In this document: positions 1,445 to 10,859 of the stretch, in pieces
Position numbering within the stretch: position 1 is the first letter of the stretch
Layout: each line of letters opens with the position of its first letter
NCBI GenBank assembly: GCA_048886685.1
Contig: JBHLKM010000040.1
Location: forward strand, 1-10,935
Direction of reading: 5' to 3'
Source: Candidatus Hodarchaeota archaeon
Lineage (GTDB): Archaea; Asgardarchaeota; Lokiarchaeia; Sigyniarchaeales; SOKP01
DNA: 10,935 bases
Translations under genes and position numbers: made by a program
The notes under the pieces: model-generated
Told to the model about the DNA's origin: nothing
The model's database searches: none
What the model saw: the letters and a program-made list of their open reading frames with translations, nothing else

Positions 1445-2272
1445 TTATTCGGTTCTATTATCCTCTATCCAGTTTATAGCATAATCAACCATTTCTCGTT
1501 GTGATAATAAATAAGCATCAGCTAAACCTACTTTTTTAGGTTTGTATTGCTTTGATATCTCGAAATTTTTACCAATTTCCTCGAAGTCATCAGGATTATG
1601 GTTCAATTCCTTCCATACTACCCATTTTCTCTTTCCTTTTTCCATTATTGATGAACCTTGGGATTGAAATATTTTCCCATAATAATTACTCCGATATTCT
1701 GCTAGATGAAGCGACGTATTATTCGAATGAGTAACTCCTAGCAATAAGATTTGCCCTTCTAGATCATAGATTTTCGTAAGAGGAGATTGTTCCCCTAGAT
1801 CAAATTCTAATTTATGATTTCTAGTAATCTTTTTAGCATATTTTCCCCAAGCTGCAAATGAAGAAAGAGGATGATTACTACGAATAACTCTTGGAAATCT
1901 ACGAAATGTCTCAGCTATGATGCCCATACCCCTCGTAGGAGATACAATTGGATCAAACGCGGGTGAATCTTGACGAATGATCTCCCACCAATTTTCAGGA
2001 ACAGGTGGATTCTCCCATCTTGATGGTTCAGAGTTCCCCCCTGTAAATGTGGGCATAATCAACGTACCTTTGTTCGTTAAAATTTCCATCATAGCTCGAA
2101 TTACGGAAAGTGGACCCCCAACAGTCCAACCTAACTCGCTTAAGGAGCTATGCATTATGATGATTGCCCCTTGTTCTACTCCAAGAGCTTTAAAATCACG
2201 TTTTAAAGTTTTAACTGTATTCGGTTTGTAAGTTTTTTTAACAACTTCAAATTCTTGTTCAATATTTTTCAT
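1445..2272 (-). CDS. AAC(3)/YokD family (aminoglycoside N3-acetyltransferase-like) protein, ~275 aa
   Basis: Motifs IMHSSLSELGWTVGG, GTLIMPTFT, MGIIAETFR, RSNHPLSSFAAWG, GQILLLGVTHSNNTSLHLAE. Start reassigned from 2428 to ATG 2272 (MKNIEQEF...), which has AGGAG upstream. The extra 52 aa in the ORF track look like translated intergenic DNA and overlap the 36-bp repeat. Confidence 0.9.
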   Translation of the reverse strand: MKNIEQEFEVVKKTYKPNTVKTLKRDFKALGVEQGAIIIMHSSLSELGWTVGGPLSVIRAMMEILTNKGTLIMPTFTGGNSEPSRWENPPVPENWWEIIRQDSPAFDPIVSPTRGMGIIAETFRRFPRVIRSNHPLSSFAAWGKYAKKITRNHKLEFDLGEQSPLTKIYDLEGQILLLGVTHSNNTSLHLAEYRSNYYGKIFQSQGSSIMEKGKRKWVVWKELNHNPDDFEEIGKNFEISKQYKPKKVGLADAYLLSQREMVDYAINWIEDNRTE

Positions 2273-2368
2273 CCTAATTTCTCCTAAATTGATAAATTTG
2301 ATTATAAAGGGAACAAATTCATTAGAATCTATAAGGTTGATCATTATCGGGTAATTGTCAATAACACA

Positions 2369-2404
2369 ACAACCATTAATTTTTTTAGGTAATAGTAATA
2401 GATA
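2369..2404. repeat. 36-bp direct repeat, copy 2 (acaaccattaatttttttaggtaaTAgtaatagata)
   Basis: 34/36 identical to 1364-1399. Confidence 0.9.
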
Positions 2405-2458
2405 GAAATATCTATTAATAACACTCAATACGAAAATTATTGGAAAAGCGAGTTTAAA

Positions 2459-4483
2459 ATGAGTGATGAAAGAAAAAAACTATGGGAACCCTCAAAAAAA
2501 TTGATAAAAAATGCTGAAGTAACACATTTCATTGATCATGTTAATAAAAAATATAAAATCTCCATTAAGGATGCTAAAGCACTGTATCAATGGTCAATTG
2601 ATAAGATTGAGGATTTTTGGGCTGCAATGTGGGATTTTGGAGGTATTATTGCTTCACAGAAGTATGATAAAGTTGTTGAAGATTTAAGCGTTTTTCCGGG
2701 TACCAAGTGGTTTCCTGGAGCAAAACTTAATTTTGCTGAGAATCTCTTAAAATATAAGGATGATCAGTTCGCATTTATATTTCAAGGTGAATCCAAAAAG
2801 ACCGAACTAATTACGTATAAAAATTTAAATATCCAAGTTGCTCGATTAGCAAAATCTCTCCATGAAATAGGGGTGAAAATTGGAGATAGAGTTGTATCAT
2901 ATATCCCAAATTTAATTGAAACGCCTACTGCAATGCTAGCAGCAACAGCCATAGGTGCTGTGTGGGCTTCATGTGGTGCAGAATTACAACCGAGTGCTGT
3001 AATTGACCGTTTTGGGCAAATTGAACCTAAAGTGTTATTCGCTGTAGATGGGTATTACTACAGAGATAAAGTGTTTGAGACTATCCCTAACATTAAAAAA
3101 GTAGTTGAAGCAATCCCTTCAATTGAAAAGGTTATTGTTGCTTCATATATTTCGGAAAGAAAACCAGATATAAGTAGTATTCCTAACGCAGTTCATTGGG
3201 ATGATTTCCTTTCTAAGGAAGAGAATCCTAAACTTGATTTTGAGCAATTACCCTTTGATCATCCCGTTTATATTATGTTTTCAAGTGGTACTACTGGTAA
3301 ACCTAAATGTATGGTTCAGGGAGCAGGTGGAGTTTTAATTAATCATCTAAAAGAATTAATCTTAGCAAGTGACCTTAAACGTTCAGATGTAATCAATTAT
3401 ATTACTGCGCCCTCATGGATGATGGTATAAGTTTTCCTTATTCCAGCCAAAATGTGGAACTGGCTAATCAGTTCCTTAGCTGTGGGCGCTACAATATTTC
3501 TATACGATGGAAATCCGCTGTATCCAGACCCATTAAGAATGTTTGAACTTATTGAAAAATATAAAATTTCGATATTTGGGACAAGTGCATCATATATCCA
3601 CAATCTGATGGGGATTAACGCTAAACCCTCTGAGAAATTTGACTTAAGTACATTAAGAGAAATTTCTCAAACAGCATCAACGCTTTCTCCAGAAGGATTT
3701 GAATATGTCTTTAAAGAGATAAAAAAAGATCTATTTTTCAATTCAATTTCAGGAGGAACAGATATTAATGGATGCTTTGCATGTGCCTTACCAATACAAG
3801 CTGTATATTCTGGTGAAATTCAAGGGAAGTCATTAGGAATGAAAGTTCAAGCATATAATGATGAAGGTGAACCTGTTCTTGACGAACAAGCTGAACTTGT
3901 ATGTGAGGCACCCTCTCCTTCAATGCCCATTTATTTTTGGGGAGATGATGAGAACATGTCGAAATACAAGGCTGCTTATTTTGATCACTTTAAAGATTCA
4001 GGAAAAAATGTATGGAGACATGGTGATTATATTGTAATTCATAGTGATACTGGAGGAATAACATTTTGGGGCAGATCTGATGCAGTACTTAAACCAAGTG
4101 GAGTAAGAATTGGAACTGCTGAAATTTATAATGTAGTGGAACAACTTCAAGAGATCGCTGATTCATTGGTGATTGGTCAAAAGATTAGTGGCGATATCCG
4201 AATTGTGATGTTTGTATTATTAAATGAAGGTTATGAATTAACAGATGAATTGAAAGAAAGAATAAAAAAAACACTTCGAGAAAAAACTTCACCTAGGCAT
4301 GTCCCAAAGCTTATAATAAAAGCACCTCCAGATGGTATTCCTTATACATTTAGTAATAAAAAAGTGGAAATAGCTATTACAAAAATCATTCATGGCATAC
4401 CAGTTGCTAATCGTGGAGCGTTAAGAAATCCTGAATCATTAGATTTCTATGAAAAAATGAGAGATGAACTCAAGAAAACTTAA
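2459..4483 (+). CDS. Acetoacetate-CoA ligase (acetoacetyl-CoA synthetase), join(2459..3421,3452..4483), 664 aa if spliced
   Basis: Both ORF-track pieces are in the same frame. Motifs: WFPGAKLNFAENLL, YIMFSSGTTGKPKCMVQGAGG (AMP-binding loop), SWMM/WNWL, SISGGTD, WRHGD, GRSD..LKPSGVRIGTAEIY, SPRHVP, PYTFSNKKVE. Removing 30 nt gives the family-typical WMMWNWL and a normal length. I saw no other lesions. Confidence 0.92.
3422..3451 (+). other. Candidate 30-nt bulge-helix-bulge (tRNA-type, EndA-spliced) intron in protein-coding gene
   Basis: Insert atggtataagttttccttattccagccaaa carries an in-frame TAA (3428-3430). Inner stem 3423-3431/3437-3445 (8 of 9 pairs). 5' bulge UGA 3420-3422. Central helix 3416-3419/3446-3449 (3 WC pairs + A.G). 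3' bulge AAA 3450-3452. Outer stem 3411-3415/3453-3457 (4 of 5 pairs). Cutting after the 2nd nt of each bulge removes exactly 3422-3451. Confidence 0.75.
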
Positions 4484-5673: not shown

Positions 5674-6789
5674 ATGGTATTGAAAATGATTTCTATTGAA
5701 ACAAAACTTCAAGATTATGTAAAGGAAATAGTCGAAAAGAACAAACACATCTATAATGTACTACTAGCTATTTCAACAGGAAATGGAGAATTCTCCTGGT
5801 CAGGTGCTGCGGGCATTGCAAATAAGGCAAAAGAAATTTCAATGACTCCTGAAACACCATTCTTTATAGCAAGCATTACTAAATTGTTCACTGCAACAAT
5901 TATTATGAAACTATATGAAGAAAAAAAGATAGATTTAGATGATACTATCGTTGATCGATTACCAGACACTCTTGTGAAAAGAATTCATATCTATAATGGT
6001 GTTGATTACACGGATTCAATCACTATAAGGCATTTGTTAAGTCATACATCTGGTATTGCTGACTATTATCTTGAAAAGCCTAAAGGAGGGAAAAGTTTCT
6101 TTGATCTAATTTTAGAGAATCCAGATGAGACCTATACAGTAGATCAGACAATCGCTTTTGCACGCGACACACTAAAAGCTAACTTTGAACCTGGTAAAAA
6201 AGCAAAATATTCTGACACTAACTTTCAACTTTTAGGAAAAATAATAGAATCAATAGTAGGTAAGGAATTACATCACGTATATCACGAGTACTTGTTTTCT
6301 CCTTTAGGCTTGAATAATACGTGGTTTTACAAAAGATCAGAACCAATAGATAAGAAAAGAATGCCTGTAGCTGAATTTTATTATAAAGATAAAATAATTT
6401 CAGATTATAAACCATTAGAATCTTCTTGGGCTGATGGAGGGTTAATCTCAACTACAAAGGATTGCTTAACTTTTCTTAAGGCATTGTTTACCGGAAAAAT
6501 TATCAATAAAGACAGTACACTCCCTTTAATGCATCAATGGAGGAGGATAGGCTTTCCATTAAAATATGGCTTCGGTACAATGAATATTGAATTACCCGCA
6601 TATATGACCATGGGTAGAAAACTTCCGCGATTAATTGGTCATCTCGGTTCTACAGGATCATTTCTTTTATATGCCAAAGATTTTGACATGTATTTTGCTG
6701 GAACAATTAATCAAGCAAGTTCTCCTTCAAAACCTGTTAAATTAGTGGTTAAGCTATTAAATACGATAAAAAAAGATCTTTTTAATTGA
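5674..6789 (+). CDS. Serine hydrolase, beta-lactamase class C / D-Ala-D-Ala carboxypeptidase-like family
   Basis: FFIASITKLF (SxxK), ITIRHLLSHTSGI, FEPGKKAKYSDTNFQLLG (YxN-equivalent region), ADGGLIST, IGHLG. No signal peptide evident. Start may be ATG 5686. Confidence 0.9.
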   Translation: MVLKMISIETKLQDYVKEIVEKNKHIYNVLLAISTGNGEFSWSGAAGIANKAKEISMTPETPFFIASITKLFTATIIMKLYEEKKIDLDDTIVDRLPDTLVKRIHIYNGVDYTDSITIRHLLSHTSGIADYYLEKPKGGKSFFDLILENPDETYTVDQTIAFARDTLKANFEPGKKAKYSDTNFQLLGKIIESIVGKELHHVYHEYLFSPLGLNNTWFYKRSEPIDKKRMPVAEFYYKDKIISDYKPLESSWADGGLISTTKDCLTFLKALFTGKIINKDSTLPLMHQWRRIGFPLKYGFGTMNIELPAYMTMGRKLPRLIGHLGSTGSFLLYAKDFDMYFAGTINQASSPSKPVKLVVKLLNTIKKDLFN

Positions 6790-10229: not shown

Positions 10230-10811
10230 TCAGATTATGACTCTAATAAGAGCATGTTTACTATTTGTGAAAAATTTTAATTTAGCGAGCTGTATTCCAA
10301 TAGAGCCAATACTTCCAGAAGCTCCTATGATAAGCATTTTTTGCCCTTTCTTGATATTTGCTTCTCTTAGATAATGCATTGCCTCAAGCCCTCCTACTGG
10401 GATTGTAGCGGCTTCTTCATATATCATATTATTAGGTTTAATTAATAAAATCTCACTTTCGCGCAGGCATACATACTCAGCATAAGCACCAAAATGAAAA
10501 CTGGTAGTTCCAAAAACGAGGTCATCTTTCTTAAAAAGTTTTACATCACTATCTACTTATTCTGTTTCCCCGGCTAGTTCCTGTCCTAATATAGAGAAGT
10601 TCTTTCTTGGGCCTCTGAAACTTATTTCTAGTCGCATCATGACTTTTAACCAACCAGAGAATTTGAGAATTCTCATCTCGCAATCCCCCATCGTTACTGT
10701 TACGGCGTGTATCTTAATTAAATCCTCATTATCTTTGGGAATTGGTCTCTCTACCTCCTGGAGCTGAAGAACATCAGGAGGACCGTATTTTGTACATATA
10801 ATTGCTTTCAT
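10230..10811 (-). pseudogene. MDR-family NAD(P)-dependent alcohol dehydrogenase/quinone reductase pseudogene
   Basis: [26 protein letters not shown]...[27 protein letters not shown]...GAYAEYVCL...EEAATIPVGGLEA...IIGASGSIGSIGIQLAK. The frame is continuous across TAA 10559-10557. Homology ends just after the Rossmann motif, so the C-terminal part is missing. Confidence 0.88.
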
Positions 10812-10859
10812 AACATTCTCTTTAACCTTATCTACCATTACTTTTTTCACTCATTTTAT

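What the first reader, a model, noticed from the sequence alone, without database searches (positions are those of the whole stretch)
3411..3457. Candidate bulge-helix-bulge (tRNA-type) intron inside an acetoacetate-CoA ligase mRNA
Seen: the two ligase ORFs are in one frame and read S-W-M-[M-V-stop-V-F-L-I-P-A-K]-M-W-N-W. Exactly 30 nt interrupt the conserved WMMWNW motif, and the rest of the gene looks intact. The RNA folds as an outer exon-exon stem (CCUCA 3411-3415 / UGUGG 3453-3457, one U.U), a 4-position central helix (UGGA 3416-3419 / GCCA 3446-3449, 3 WC pairs + A.G), two 3-nt bulges on opposite strands (UGA 3420-3422, AAA 3450-3452) and an intron hairpin (UGGUAUAAG-uuuuc-CUUAUUCCA). 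Established: archaeal splicing endonuclease EndA cuts BHB motifs after the second nucleotide of each bulge and RtcB ligates the exons. The well-documented protein-gene example is the cbf5 intron of some crenarchaea. Applying that rule excises 3422-3451, one of only four registers that restore the protein, so the structure and the protein homology agree independently. Inference: this is a spliced mini-intron in an ordinary metabolic gene of a probable Asgard-like archaeon. It would imply mRNA splicing by the tRNA machinery is wider than recognised and that such genes are mis-annotated as split or pseudogenes. Weak point: the A.G pair in the central helix requires an endonuclease with relaxed specificity.
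Basis: partly seen in the sequence, partly recalled or inferred. Interest (0 to 1): 0.95.

Follow-up and report, generated by a model that had tools for sequence, protein, structure and literature searches.

The report
tRNA-type intron in Asgard ligase gene
A 30-base insert with a stop codon interrupts the acetoacetate-CoA ligase gene of an Asgard (Loki-type) archaeon, and comparison with dozens of relatives makes it very likely an intron cut out of the messenger RNA by the tRNA-splicing enzymes, which the papers searched document inside an archaeal coding sequence for one gene only (cbf5); removal from RNA was not observed.

Summary
Confirmed at DNA level; splicing is inferred, not observed. 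The insert 3422-3451 splits the WMMWNW motif. The same 30-nt insert, always with an in-frame stop, sits at this site in 22 of 159 genomes of the class (8 genera of one Promethearchaeota family) and in two other assemblies 99.9% identical to this one. Removing it gives an intact frame; dN/dS is 0.06-0.08, as in intron-less copies. The hairpin covaries (5 of 9 pairs). The first insert codon varies (Met, Ile, Leu, Val, Thr) while all 222 uninterrupted proteins keep MMWNW. This fixes the 5' boundary at the bulge-helix-bulge (BHB) cut site and argues against ribosomal bypassing. The host has a two-subunit EndA with the broad-specificity loop lysine, and RtcB. The A.G central mismatch is conserved. 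Presence is patchy (at least 7 changes on the gene tree). No spliced RNA was found. The scan noted this site and many similar Asgard mRNA introns earlier in other genomes.

The parts
2459..3421 (+). Exon 1 of the acetoacetate-CoA ligase gene (321 codons, ends ...APSWM)
   Evidence: matches PRK03584 profile positions 3-320 and TIGR01217 4-319
3422..3451 (+). 30-nt putative BHB intron (1 bulge base + 23-nt hairpin + 4-nt central strand + 2 bulge bases)
   Evidence: same length and site in 23 of 23 matches of a class-wide pattern search with a free gap length; 5' boundary fixed by variants at the first base
3428..3430 (+). In-frame TAA inside the 5' arm of the hairpin; stops unspliced mRNA after 323 codons
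   Evidence: stop at this codon in all 28 distinct variants, TAG in two of them with a compensatory partner change
3423..3445 (+). Intron hairpin, 9-pair stem (one U.U in this genome) and a variable 5-nt loop
   Evidence: 5 of 9 pairs changed on both sides, 0 of 500 shuffles as high for the whole structure
3416..3419 (+). Central helix, 5' (exon) strand UGGA
   Evidence: three pairs invariant in 37 of 37 rows; this strand is also fixed by the Trp-Met codons
3446..3449 (+). Central helix, 3' (intron) strand GCCA; G3446 faces A3419
   Evidence: CCA in 23 of 23 matches of a pattern that did not impose it; G in 21, U in 1, A in 1
3420..3422 (+). 5' bulge UGA; predicted cut 3421/3422
   Evidence: 3422 is A, G or T in relatives
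3450..3452 (+). 3' bulge AAA; predicted cut 3451/3452
   Evidence: invariant
3414..3415 (+). Short outer helix CA, pairing with UG at 3453-3454
   Evidence: 20 of 21 intron-bearing rows not selected for it vs 5 of 20 intron-less rows; low computed pair probability (about 0.05)
3407..3412 (+). 5' strand of a long-range exon1-exon2 helix (partner 3484-3489), built from synonymous codon choices
   Evidence: pair 3409/3487 G-C 25, A-U 6, G-U 3, U-A 1 of 37; found by RNAalifold; probability about 1.0
3484..3489 (+). 3' strand of the long-range exon1-exon2 helix
   Evidence: both synonymous pairs kept in 33 of 37 intron-bearing vs 4 of 20 intron-less rows
3456..3475 (+). Exon-2 hairpin (3456-3462/3469-3475), third arm of the junction; less well supported
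   Evidence: probability 1.0 in this genome, 0.3-0.5 averaged over relatives; no double changes
3452..4483 (+). Exon 2 (343 codons, begins MWNW); joined product 664 aa
   Evidence: PRK03584 positions 320-654, abutting exon 1

Best explanation
The gene is a working acetoacetate-CoA ligase interrupted by a 30-nt intron of the archaeal tRNA type. In the pre-mRNA a long-range exon-exon helix (3407-3412/3484-3489) and an exon-2 hairpin hold the two boundaries together, the intron folds into a hairpin, and a relaxed BHB motif forms between them (3 Watson-Crick pairs plus A.G, 2-bp outer helix). The host's two-subunit EndA cuts after the second base of each bulge (3421/3422, 3451/3452) and RtcB joins the exons, giving a 664-aa enzyme with intact WMMWNW. 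Unspliced mRNA terminates at the TAA. Shown: the DNA insert, its conservation, covariation, register, selection on the gene, and the presence of the enzymes. Inferred: the fold in vivo, cleavage by EndA, ligation by RtcB. The patchy distribution is best read as repeated precise loss and/or transfer by recombination; direction is not resolved.
For: Fixed 30-nt length and site in 22 of 159 genomes, 0 for the control pattern. Removal gives an open frame in every intron-bearing locus examined. dN/dS medians 0.080 and 0.057 for the two exons, against 0.084 and 0.057 in intron-less copies. Covariation: 8 pairs with double changes, 0 of 500 shuffles; G153 adds a further double change in the stem. Of 136 split products 26 have a non-Met residue at the first insert codon, whereas 222 of 222 uninterrupted proteins read MMWNW; L184/L185 begin GTG and L189 TTG, so only the BHB register restores the motif there. 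Synonymous codons near the junction are constrained only in intron-bearing alleles (identity 0.71 near vs 0.49 far; intron-less 0.39 vs 0.49). EndA alpha passes the TIGR00324 cut-off and aligns to a solved crenarchaeal-type alpha subunit with the loop lysine (K44) and the catalytic Y/H/K in place; K44 gives broad specificity (PMC3241643) and Asgard EndAs are reported to carry this loop (PMC5829648). RtcB present. Four other inserts of 30-33 nt in purA, pfk (two) and cobO of this genome have a 3-4 pair central helix at a motif-restoring register.
Against: No spliced RNA was found; the closest uninterrupted relatives were 85-95% identical in DNA, and at least one came from an assembly labelled as a metagenome. 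[quoted passage not shown] The BHB core is weak in folding models (central pairs about 0.3, outer pairs about 0.05). Association of exon pairing with intron presence points the expected way but is not significant on independent pairs (p 0.125-0.6), and similar flanks could partly reflect co-transfer by recombination. One carrier (L132) lacks the outer CA/UG pair.
Confidence: 0.88

Rival explanations
1. Programmed translational bypassing: the ribosome leaves one AUG, slides over the hairpin and stop, and lands on AUG 3452-3454, as in T4 gene 60.
For: In this genome the insert begins with ATG and is followed by ATG; it holds a hairpin and an invariant stop. Flanking structure could serve bypassing too.
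Against: [quoted passage not shown] Here a codon lies between the AUG and the stop, and the needed take-off codon is not Met in 26 of 136 split products. Take-off from the earlier AUG would delete one Met from a motif invariant in 222 of 222 proteins. It does not explain the invariant CCA-AA end.
Confidence: 0.04
2. A genuinely split gene: two polypeptides (323 and 343 aa) are made by termination and restart at AUG 3452 and assemble into one enzyme; the hairpin tunes restart.
For: Exon 2 starts with ATG and is called as a separate gene in public assemblies. Both halves are under purifying selection.
Against: The break lies inside a motif conserved as far as the solved Streptomyces enzyme 4WD1. 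A spacer would not be expected to stay exactly 30 nt in all carriers, to keep the central-helix bases, or to be lost precisely many times.
Confidence: 0.03
3. The 30 nt are removed from RNA, but by a route other than EndA/RtcB (another nuclease, or a protein cofactor that recognises the three-way junction).
For: The BHB core is thermodynamically marginal while the flanking helices are strong; the A.G opposition is conserved rather than repaired.
Against: The boundary fixed by sequence variation equals the EndA rule exactly; relaxed motifs are usual for cbf5 introns (PMC2738675).
Confidence: 0.03
4. Pseudogene, stop read-through with a tolerated 10-residue insert, or assembly artefact.
For: In-frame stop; insert length is a multiple of three; the genome is an assembly with 8% estimated contamination.
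Against: Identical insert in two other assemblies; no second lesion in any carrier; dN/dS 0.06-0.08; the insert's translation varies freely while its pairing is kept; it is the only close copy of this ligase found in the genome.
Confidence: 0.02

Closest known systems
cbf5 pre-mRNA intron of Desulfurococcales and Sulfolobales (Watanabe 2002; Yoshinari 2006; Yokobori 2009, PMC2738675)
   Same: Short intron inside a coding sequence at a conserved motif; unconventional BHB; cut predicted between bulge bases 2 and 3; hetero-oligomeric EndA; secondary losses in some lineages.
   Different: Asgard (Promethearchaeota) host; ordinary metabolic gene, not an RNA-modification gene; 3n length with an invariant stop; present or absent among alleles up to 98% identical in protein; long-range exon helix written in synonymous codons; at least four more such inserts in the same genome; splicing not shown here.
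BHB intron in the 5' UTR of Haloferax volcanii HVO_1309 (PMC7714728)
   Same: Short (46-nt) EndA substrate in an mRNA.
   Different: Untranslated region, so no effect on the reading frame; alpha2-type EndA; shown by circular RNA and in vitro cleavage.
Non-canonical tRNA introns of Asgard archaea (PMC11291895; bioRxiv 10.64898/2026.10.13.758758)
   Same: Same size range, BHB boundaries, repeated gains, same predicted enzymes.
   Different: Those are in tRNA genes; the passages of those papers searched here report no mRNA introns. No copy of this insert was found elsewhere in the genome.
T4 gene 60 translational bypass (PMC7026636)
   Same: Short non-coding gap with a stop and a hairpin inside an ORF.
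   Different: [quoted passage not shown]

Membership tests
Archaeal BHB (EndA/RtcB) intron | Two 3-nt bulges on opposite strands separated by a 4-position central helix | tested here: met
   geometry holds only at register 3422-3451; three central pairs invariant
Archaeal BHB (EndA/RtcB) intron | Canonical class: all four central pairs formed | tested here: not met
   A.G in 35 of 37 rows, A-U in one, A.A in one. It is a relaxed motif, not a canonical hBHBh'
Archaeal BHB (EndA/RtcB) intron | Flanking helices (intron side and exon side) | tested here: met
   9-pair intron stem with covariation; 2-bp outer helix in 36 of 37 rows, backed by a covarying long-range exon helix
Archaeal BHB (EndA/RtcB) intron | Cut after the second base of each bulge coincides with the boundary that restores the product | tested here: met
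   variants with G or T at 3422 are repaired only by this register
Archaeal BHB (EndA/RtcB) intron | Host encodes an EndA able to cut relaxed motifs, and a ligase | tested here: met
   two EndA subunits; loop lysine and catalytic triad aligned; RtcB. Sequence evidence only
Archaeal BHB (EndA/RtcB) intron | Spliced RNA or excised intron detected in cells | tested here: inconclusive
   no RNA-derived contig identified; the tools hold no reads
Archaeal BHB (EndA/RtcB) intron | Cleavage by EndA in vitro | not testable with these tools
   needs an experiment
Programmed translational bypass (T4 gene 60 type) | [quoted passage not shown] | tested here: not met
   needed take-off codon is not Met in 26 of 136 split products
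Programmed translational bypass (T4 gene 60 type) | Stop codon immediately after the take-off codon | tested here: not met
   a variable V/A/I/L codon lies between
Acetoacetate-CoA ligase (TIGR01217, PRK03584) | Whole-protein score above the curated cut-off | tested here: inconclusive
   halves score 348 and 423 bits on TIGR01217 (cut-off 521) and cover profile positions 4-319 and 319-648; the joined protein could not be submitted; intron-less orthologs at about 89% identity carry this name
Mobile DNA element (MITE or IS footprint) | Other copies in the genome and a conserved target-site duplication | tested here: not met
   single copy at up to 6 mismatches; the apparent ATG repeat is not conserved

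The most novel reading that the evidence does not exclude
In this Asgard family the tRNA-splicing machinery routinely matures ordinary mRNAs. Short relaxed-BHB introns are gained and lost among close relatives, exon codons are under selection to build a helix that presents the splice sites, and a deliberately weak core (conserved A.G) with a built-in stop makes enzyme output depend on EndA activity.
Probability: 0.5. Interest if true: 0.9.

Novelty: new variant of a known kind. Interest (0 to 1): 0.76.

Why it matters
The papers searched document EndA splicing inside an archaeal coding sequence only for cbf5, plus one 5' UTR case in Haloferax (PMC2738675, PMC7714728, PMC10485636). A conserved intron in a routine metabolic gene of Asgard archaea, with at least four more candidates in the same genome, would mean that the closest prokaryotic relatives of eukaryotes splice messenger RNA with the tRNA machinery. 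Such genes are now annotated as two partial 'AMP-binding proteins', so Asgard metabolic reconstructions undercount them. The site is a convenient test case: alleles with and without the intron exist at up to 98% protein identity, natural variants cover canonical (A-U) and relaxed (A.G, A.A) cores, and the whole substrate fits in about 95 nt.

Tried and rejected
(1) Looking for a spliced transcript through uninterrupted proteins close to intron-bearing ones: best matches were 97-99% in protein; the contigs fetched were 85-95% identical in DNA to carriers or had intron-less-type flanks, so they are separate alleles, not transcripts. (2) A blind genome-wide scan for BHB motifs that join ORFs gave no excess over wrong-length controls (85+13 joins vs 82-121 in controls) and missed the relaxed inserts in purA, pfk and cobO, so no genome-wide count is claimed. 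(4) A spliceosome-like GT...AG reading (3425-3446, 22 nt) shifts the frame; rejected on sequence. (5) Rfam: no match in the window. (6) No other copy of the insert in the genome. (7) Independent-pair tests of exon pairing against intron presence were not significant. (8) Loci L044-L062 came from a pattern that imposed the flanks and were not used as evidence for conservation of those bases. (9) Promoter/terminator scan: nothing above shuffles.

Full report
Observation. The window is the whole of contig C40 of a 4.4-Mb, 31% G+C genome. Related records are titled Promethearchaeota. ORFs 2459-3430 and 3452-4483 are in one frame and match consecutive parts of the acetoacetate-CoA ligase profile, positions 3-320 and 320-654 of PRK03584. 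Thirty bases holding a TAA interrupt the WMMWNW motif, which is conserved as far as the solved Streptomyces enzyme 4WD1. Only register 3422-3451 of nine tested satisfies it; the geometry occurs at 2.6e-5 of genome positions and in 62 of 200,000 shuffles of the insert. The isolated 47-mer does not fold unusually well (z -0.89), so the case rests on comparison, not on energy.

The insert is real and old. Two other assemblies 99.9% identical over 6.9 kb carry it unchanged. A pattern with a free gap of 20-45 nt found it in 22 of 159 genomes of the class, in 8 genera of the window's family; all 23 matches are exactly 30 nt, and the control pattern found none. About 20 orthologs among the relatives fetched lack it precisely. 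In every carrier examined removal gives an open frame with no second lesion. Pairwise dN/dS medians are 0.080 and 0.057 for the two exons among carriers and 0.084 and 0.057 among intron-less copies (some pairs are near saturation). This excludes a pseudogene.

The insert is conserved as structure. Five of nine hairpin pairs show changes on both sides, above all 500 shuffles and all slid controls; the tool warns that kinship inflates such counts, but the changes fall on several branches. The loop varies freely and the insert's translation is not conserved. The 3' end CCA-AA, which supplies the central helix and bulge, is present in all 23 matches of the search that did not impose it; the base facing A3419 is G in 21, U in one, A in one. 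The motif is therefore a relaxed BHB, not a canonical one. The in-frame stop is kept in all 28 distinct variants, twice as TAG with a compensatory partner.

The register is fixed independently of the fold. In this genome four registers restore the protein. Among 136 split N-terminal products, the residue encoded by the first insert codon is Met in 110, Ile in 14, Leu in 8, Val in 3 and Thr in 1, while 222 of 222 uninterrupted proteins read MMWNW (these sequences are not independent). Loci L184, L185 and L189 show GTG or TTG there. In them only removal of the 30 nt starting at the base equivalent to 3422 restores the motif, and that is the EndA rule. The same fact counts against ribosomal bypassing, which needs matched take-off and landing codons with the stop directly after take-off (PMC7026636).

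A correction to the drawn structure. Synonymous codons from about six before to fourteen after the junction are constrained in carriers (identity 0.71 against 0.49 further away) and not in intron-less alleles (0.39 against 0.49), with a free codon inside the tract. An exon-2 hairpin (3456-3475) is less well supported. The likely substrate is a BHB with a 2-bp outer helix inside a three-way junction. On independent pairs the association with intron presence points the expected way but is not significant, and co-transfer of flanks by recombination may contribute.

Machinery. The genome encodes two EndA subunits. The one on C18 passes the TIGR00324 cut-off and aligns to PDB 3P1Z chain B with the loop lysine at position 44 and the catalytic Tyr, His and Lys in place; that 3P1Z is the Aeropyrum enzyme is my recollection, consistent with K44 in PMC3241643, which ties this residue to broad specificity. 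PMC5829648 reports this loop in Asgard EndAs. RtcB is present. Following earlier scan notes I checked four other inserts in this genome: purA (30 nt), pfk (31 and 30 nt) and cobO (33 nt). Each has a 3-4 pair central helix at a register that restores a conserved motif, and most have imperfect flanking helices. Relaxed motifs thus seem normal here.

History. On a 58-row gene tree built without the junction region, presence of the insert needs 10 changes, 7 forced by strong branches, and a single clade of carriers is rejected (AU p 0.0005). The genes nearest to the window's are intron-less. Intron-less alleles up to 98% identical in protein to carriers keep carrier-type flanks, which suggests recent precise loss, as proposed for cbf5 (PMC2738675); transfer by recombination is not excluded, and the tree cannot give direction.

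What is not shown. No spliced RNA was found. Cleavage, ligation and the fold in the cell are inferences. Earlier scan notes report RNA evidence for other Asgard mRNA introns (e1-5425605, e1-5425751); I could not test them and do not count them as support.

Comparison and verdict. It works like the cbf5 intron, the only coding-sequence example in the papers searched (PMC2738675, PMC7714728, PMC10485636). It meets the geometric, register and enzyme criteria, fails the canonical four-pair criterion, and lacks RNA proof. Recent Asgard papers describe abundant tRNA introns; the passages searched mention no mRNA introns. I put 0.88 on an EndA/RtcB-spliced mRNA intron and rate it a new variant of a known kind, interest 0.76. 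The scan has noted this same site and many similar introns in other Asgard genomes.

Noticed in passing
G000 C2:178230-178201 (-), C16:51761-51731 and 51445-51416 (-), C17:95399-95367 (-): Inserts of 30, 31, 30 and 33 nt in purA, pfk (two) and cobO of the same genome; each has a BHB central helix at a register that restores a conserved motif. Leads came from earlier scan notes.
   Followed up: partly
G000 C5:243982-244231 (+), L195: A decayed partial copy of pfk carrying a near-identical version of the second pfk insert.
   Followed up: no
window 10230-10850 (-): Looks like a quinone-oxidoreductase or zinc-dehydrogenase-like gene with an in-frame TAA at about 10557 and a truncated 3' end: an ordinary pseudogene, with no insert (family assigned by eye, Pfam found nothing in the pieces).
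   Followed up: partly
window 1445-2428 (-) and 5674-6789 (+): Aminoglycoside 3-N-acetyltransferase family gene and a beta-lactamase-family serine hydrolase gene near the ligase; family names only, function untested.
   Followed up: no
L132:7236-7331: A carrier with Ser codon AGT lacks the CA/UG outer pair but keeps the long-range helix through a U-A swap; a natural test of which element is needed.
   Followed up: partly
L048 (SDBS01018332.1): Mosaic allele: 76% protein identity to the window in exon 1 and 90% in exon 2, with an identical insert; suggests recombination near the intron.
   Followed up: no
G023 C17 and C57 (L010, L039): One genome holds two divergent copies of the gene with identical inserts; the bin has 9% estimated contamination, so paralogy is unsure.
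   Followed up: no
L067 and L077: Records titled Odinarchaeota and Thorarchaeota show the same inserts as genomes G103 and G089, which the tool places in the window's own family; the titles are probably not reliable, so no spread beyond one family is claimed.
   Followed up: partly
G000 C1:221073-221165 (-): ARAGORN calls a tRNA-Sec and many intron-bearing tRNAs in this genome; tRNA-Ser(GGA) and tRNA-Leu(CAG) introns have canonical four-pair BHB motifs.
   Followed up: partly
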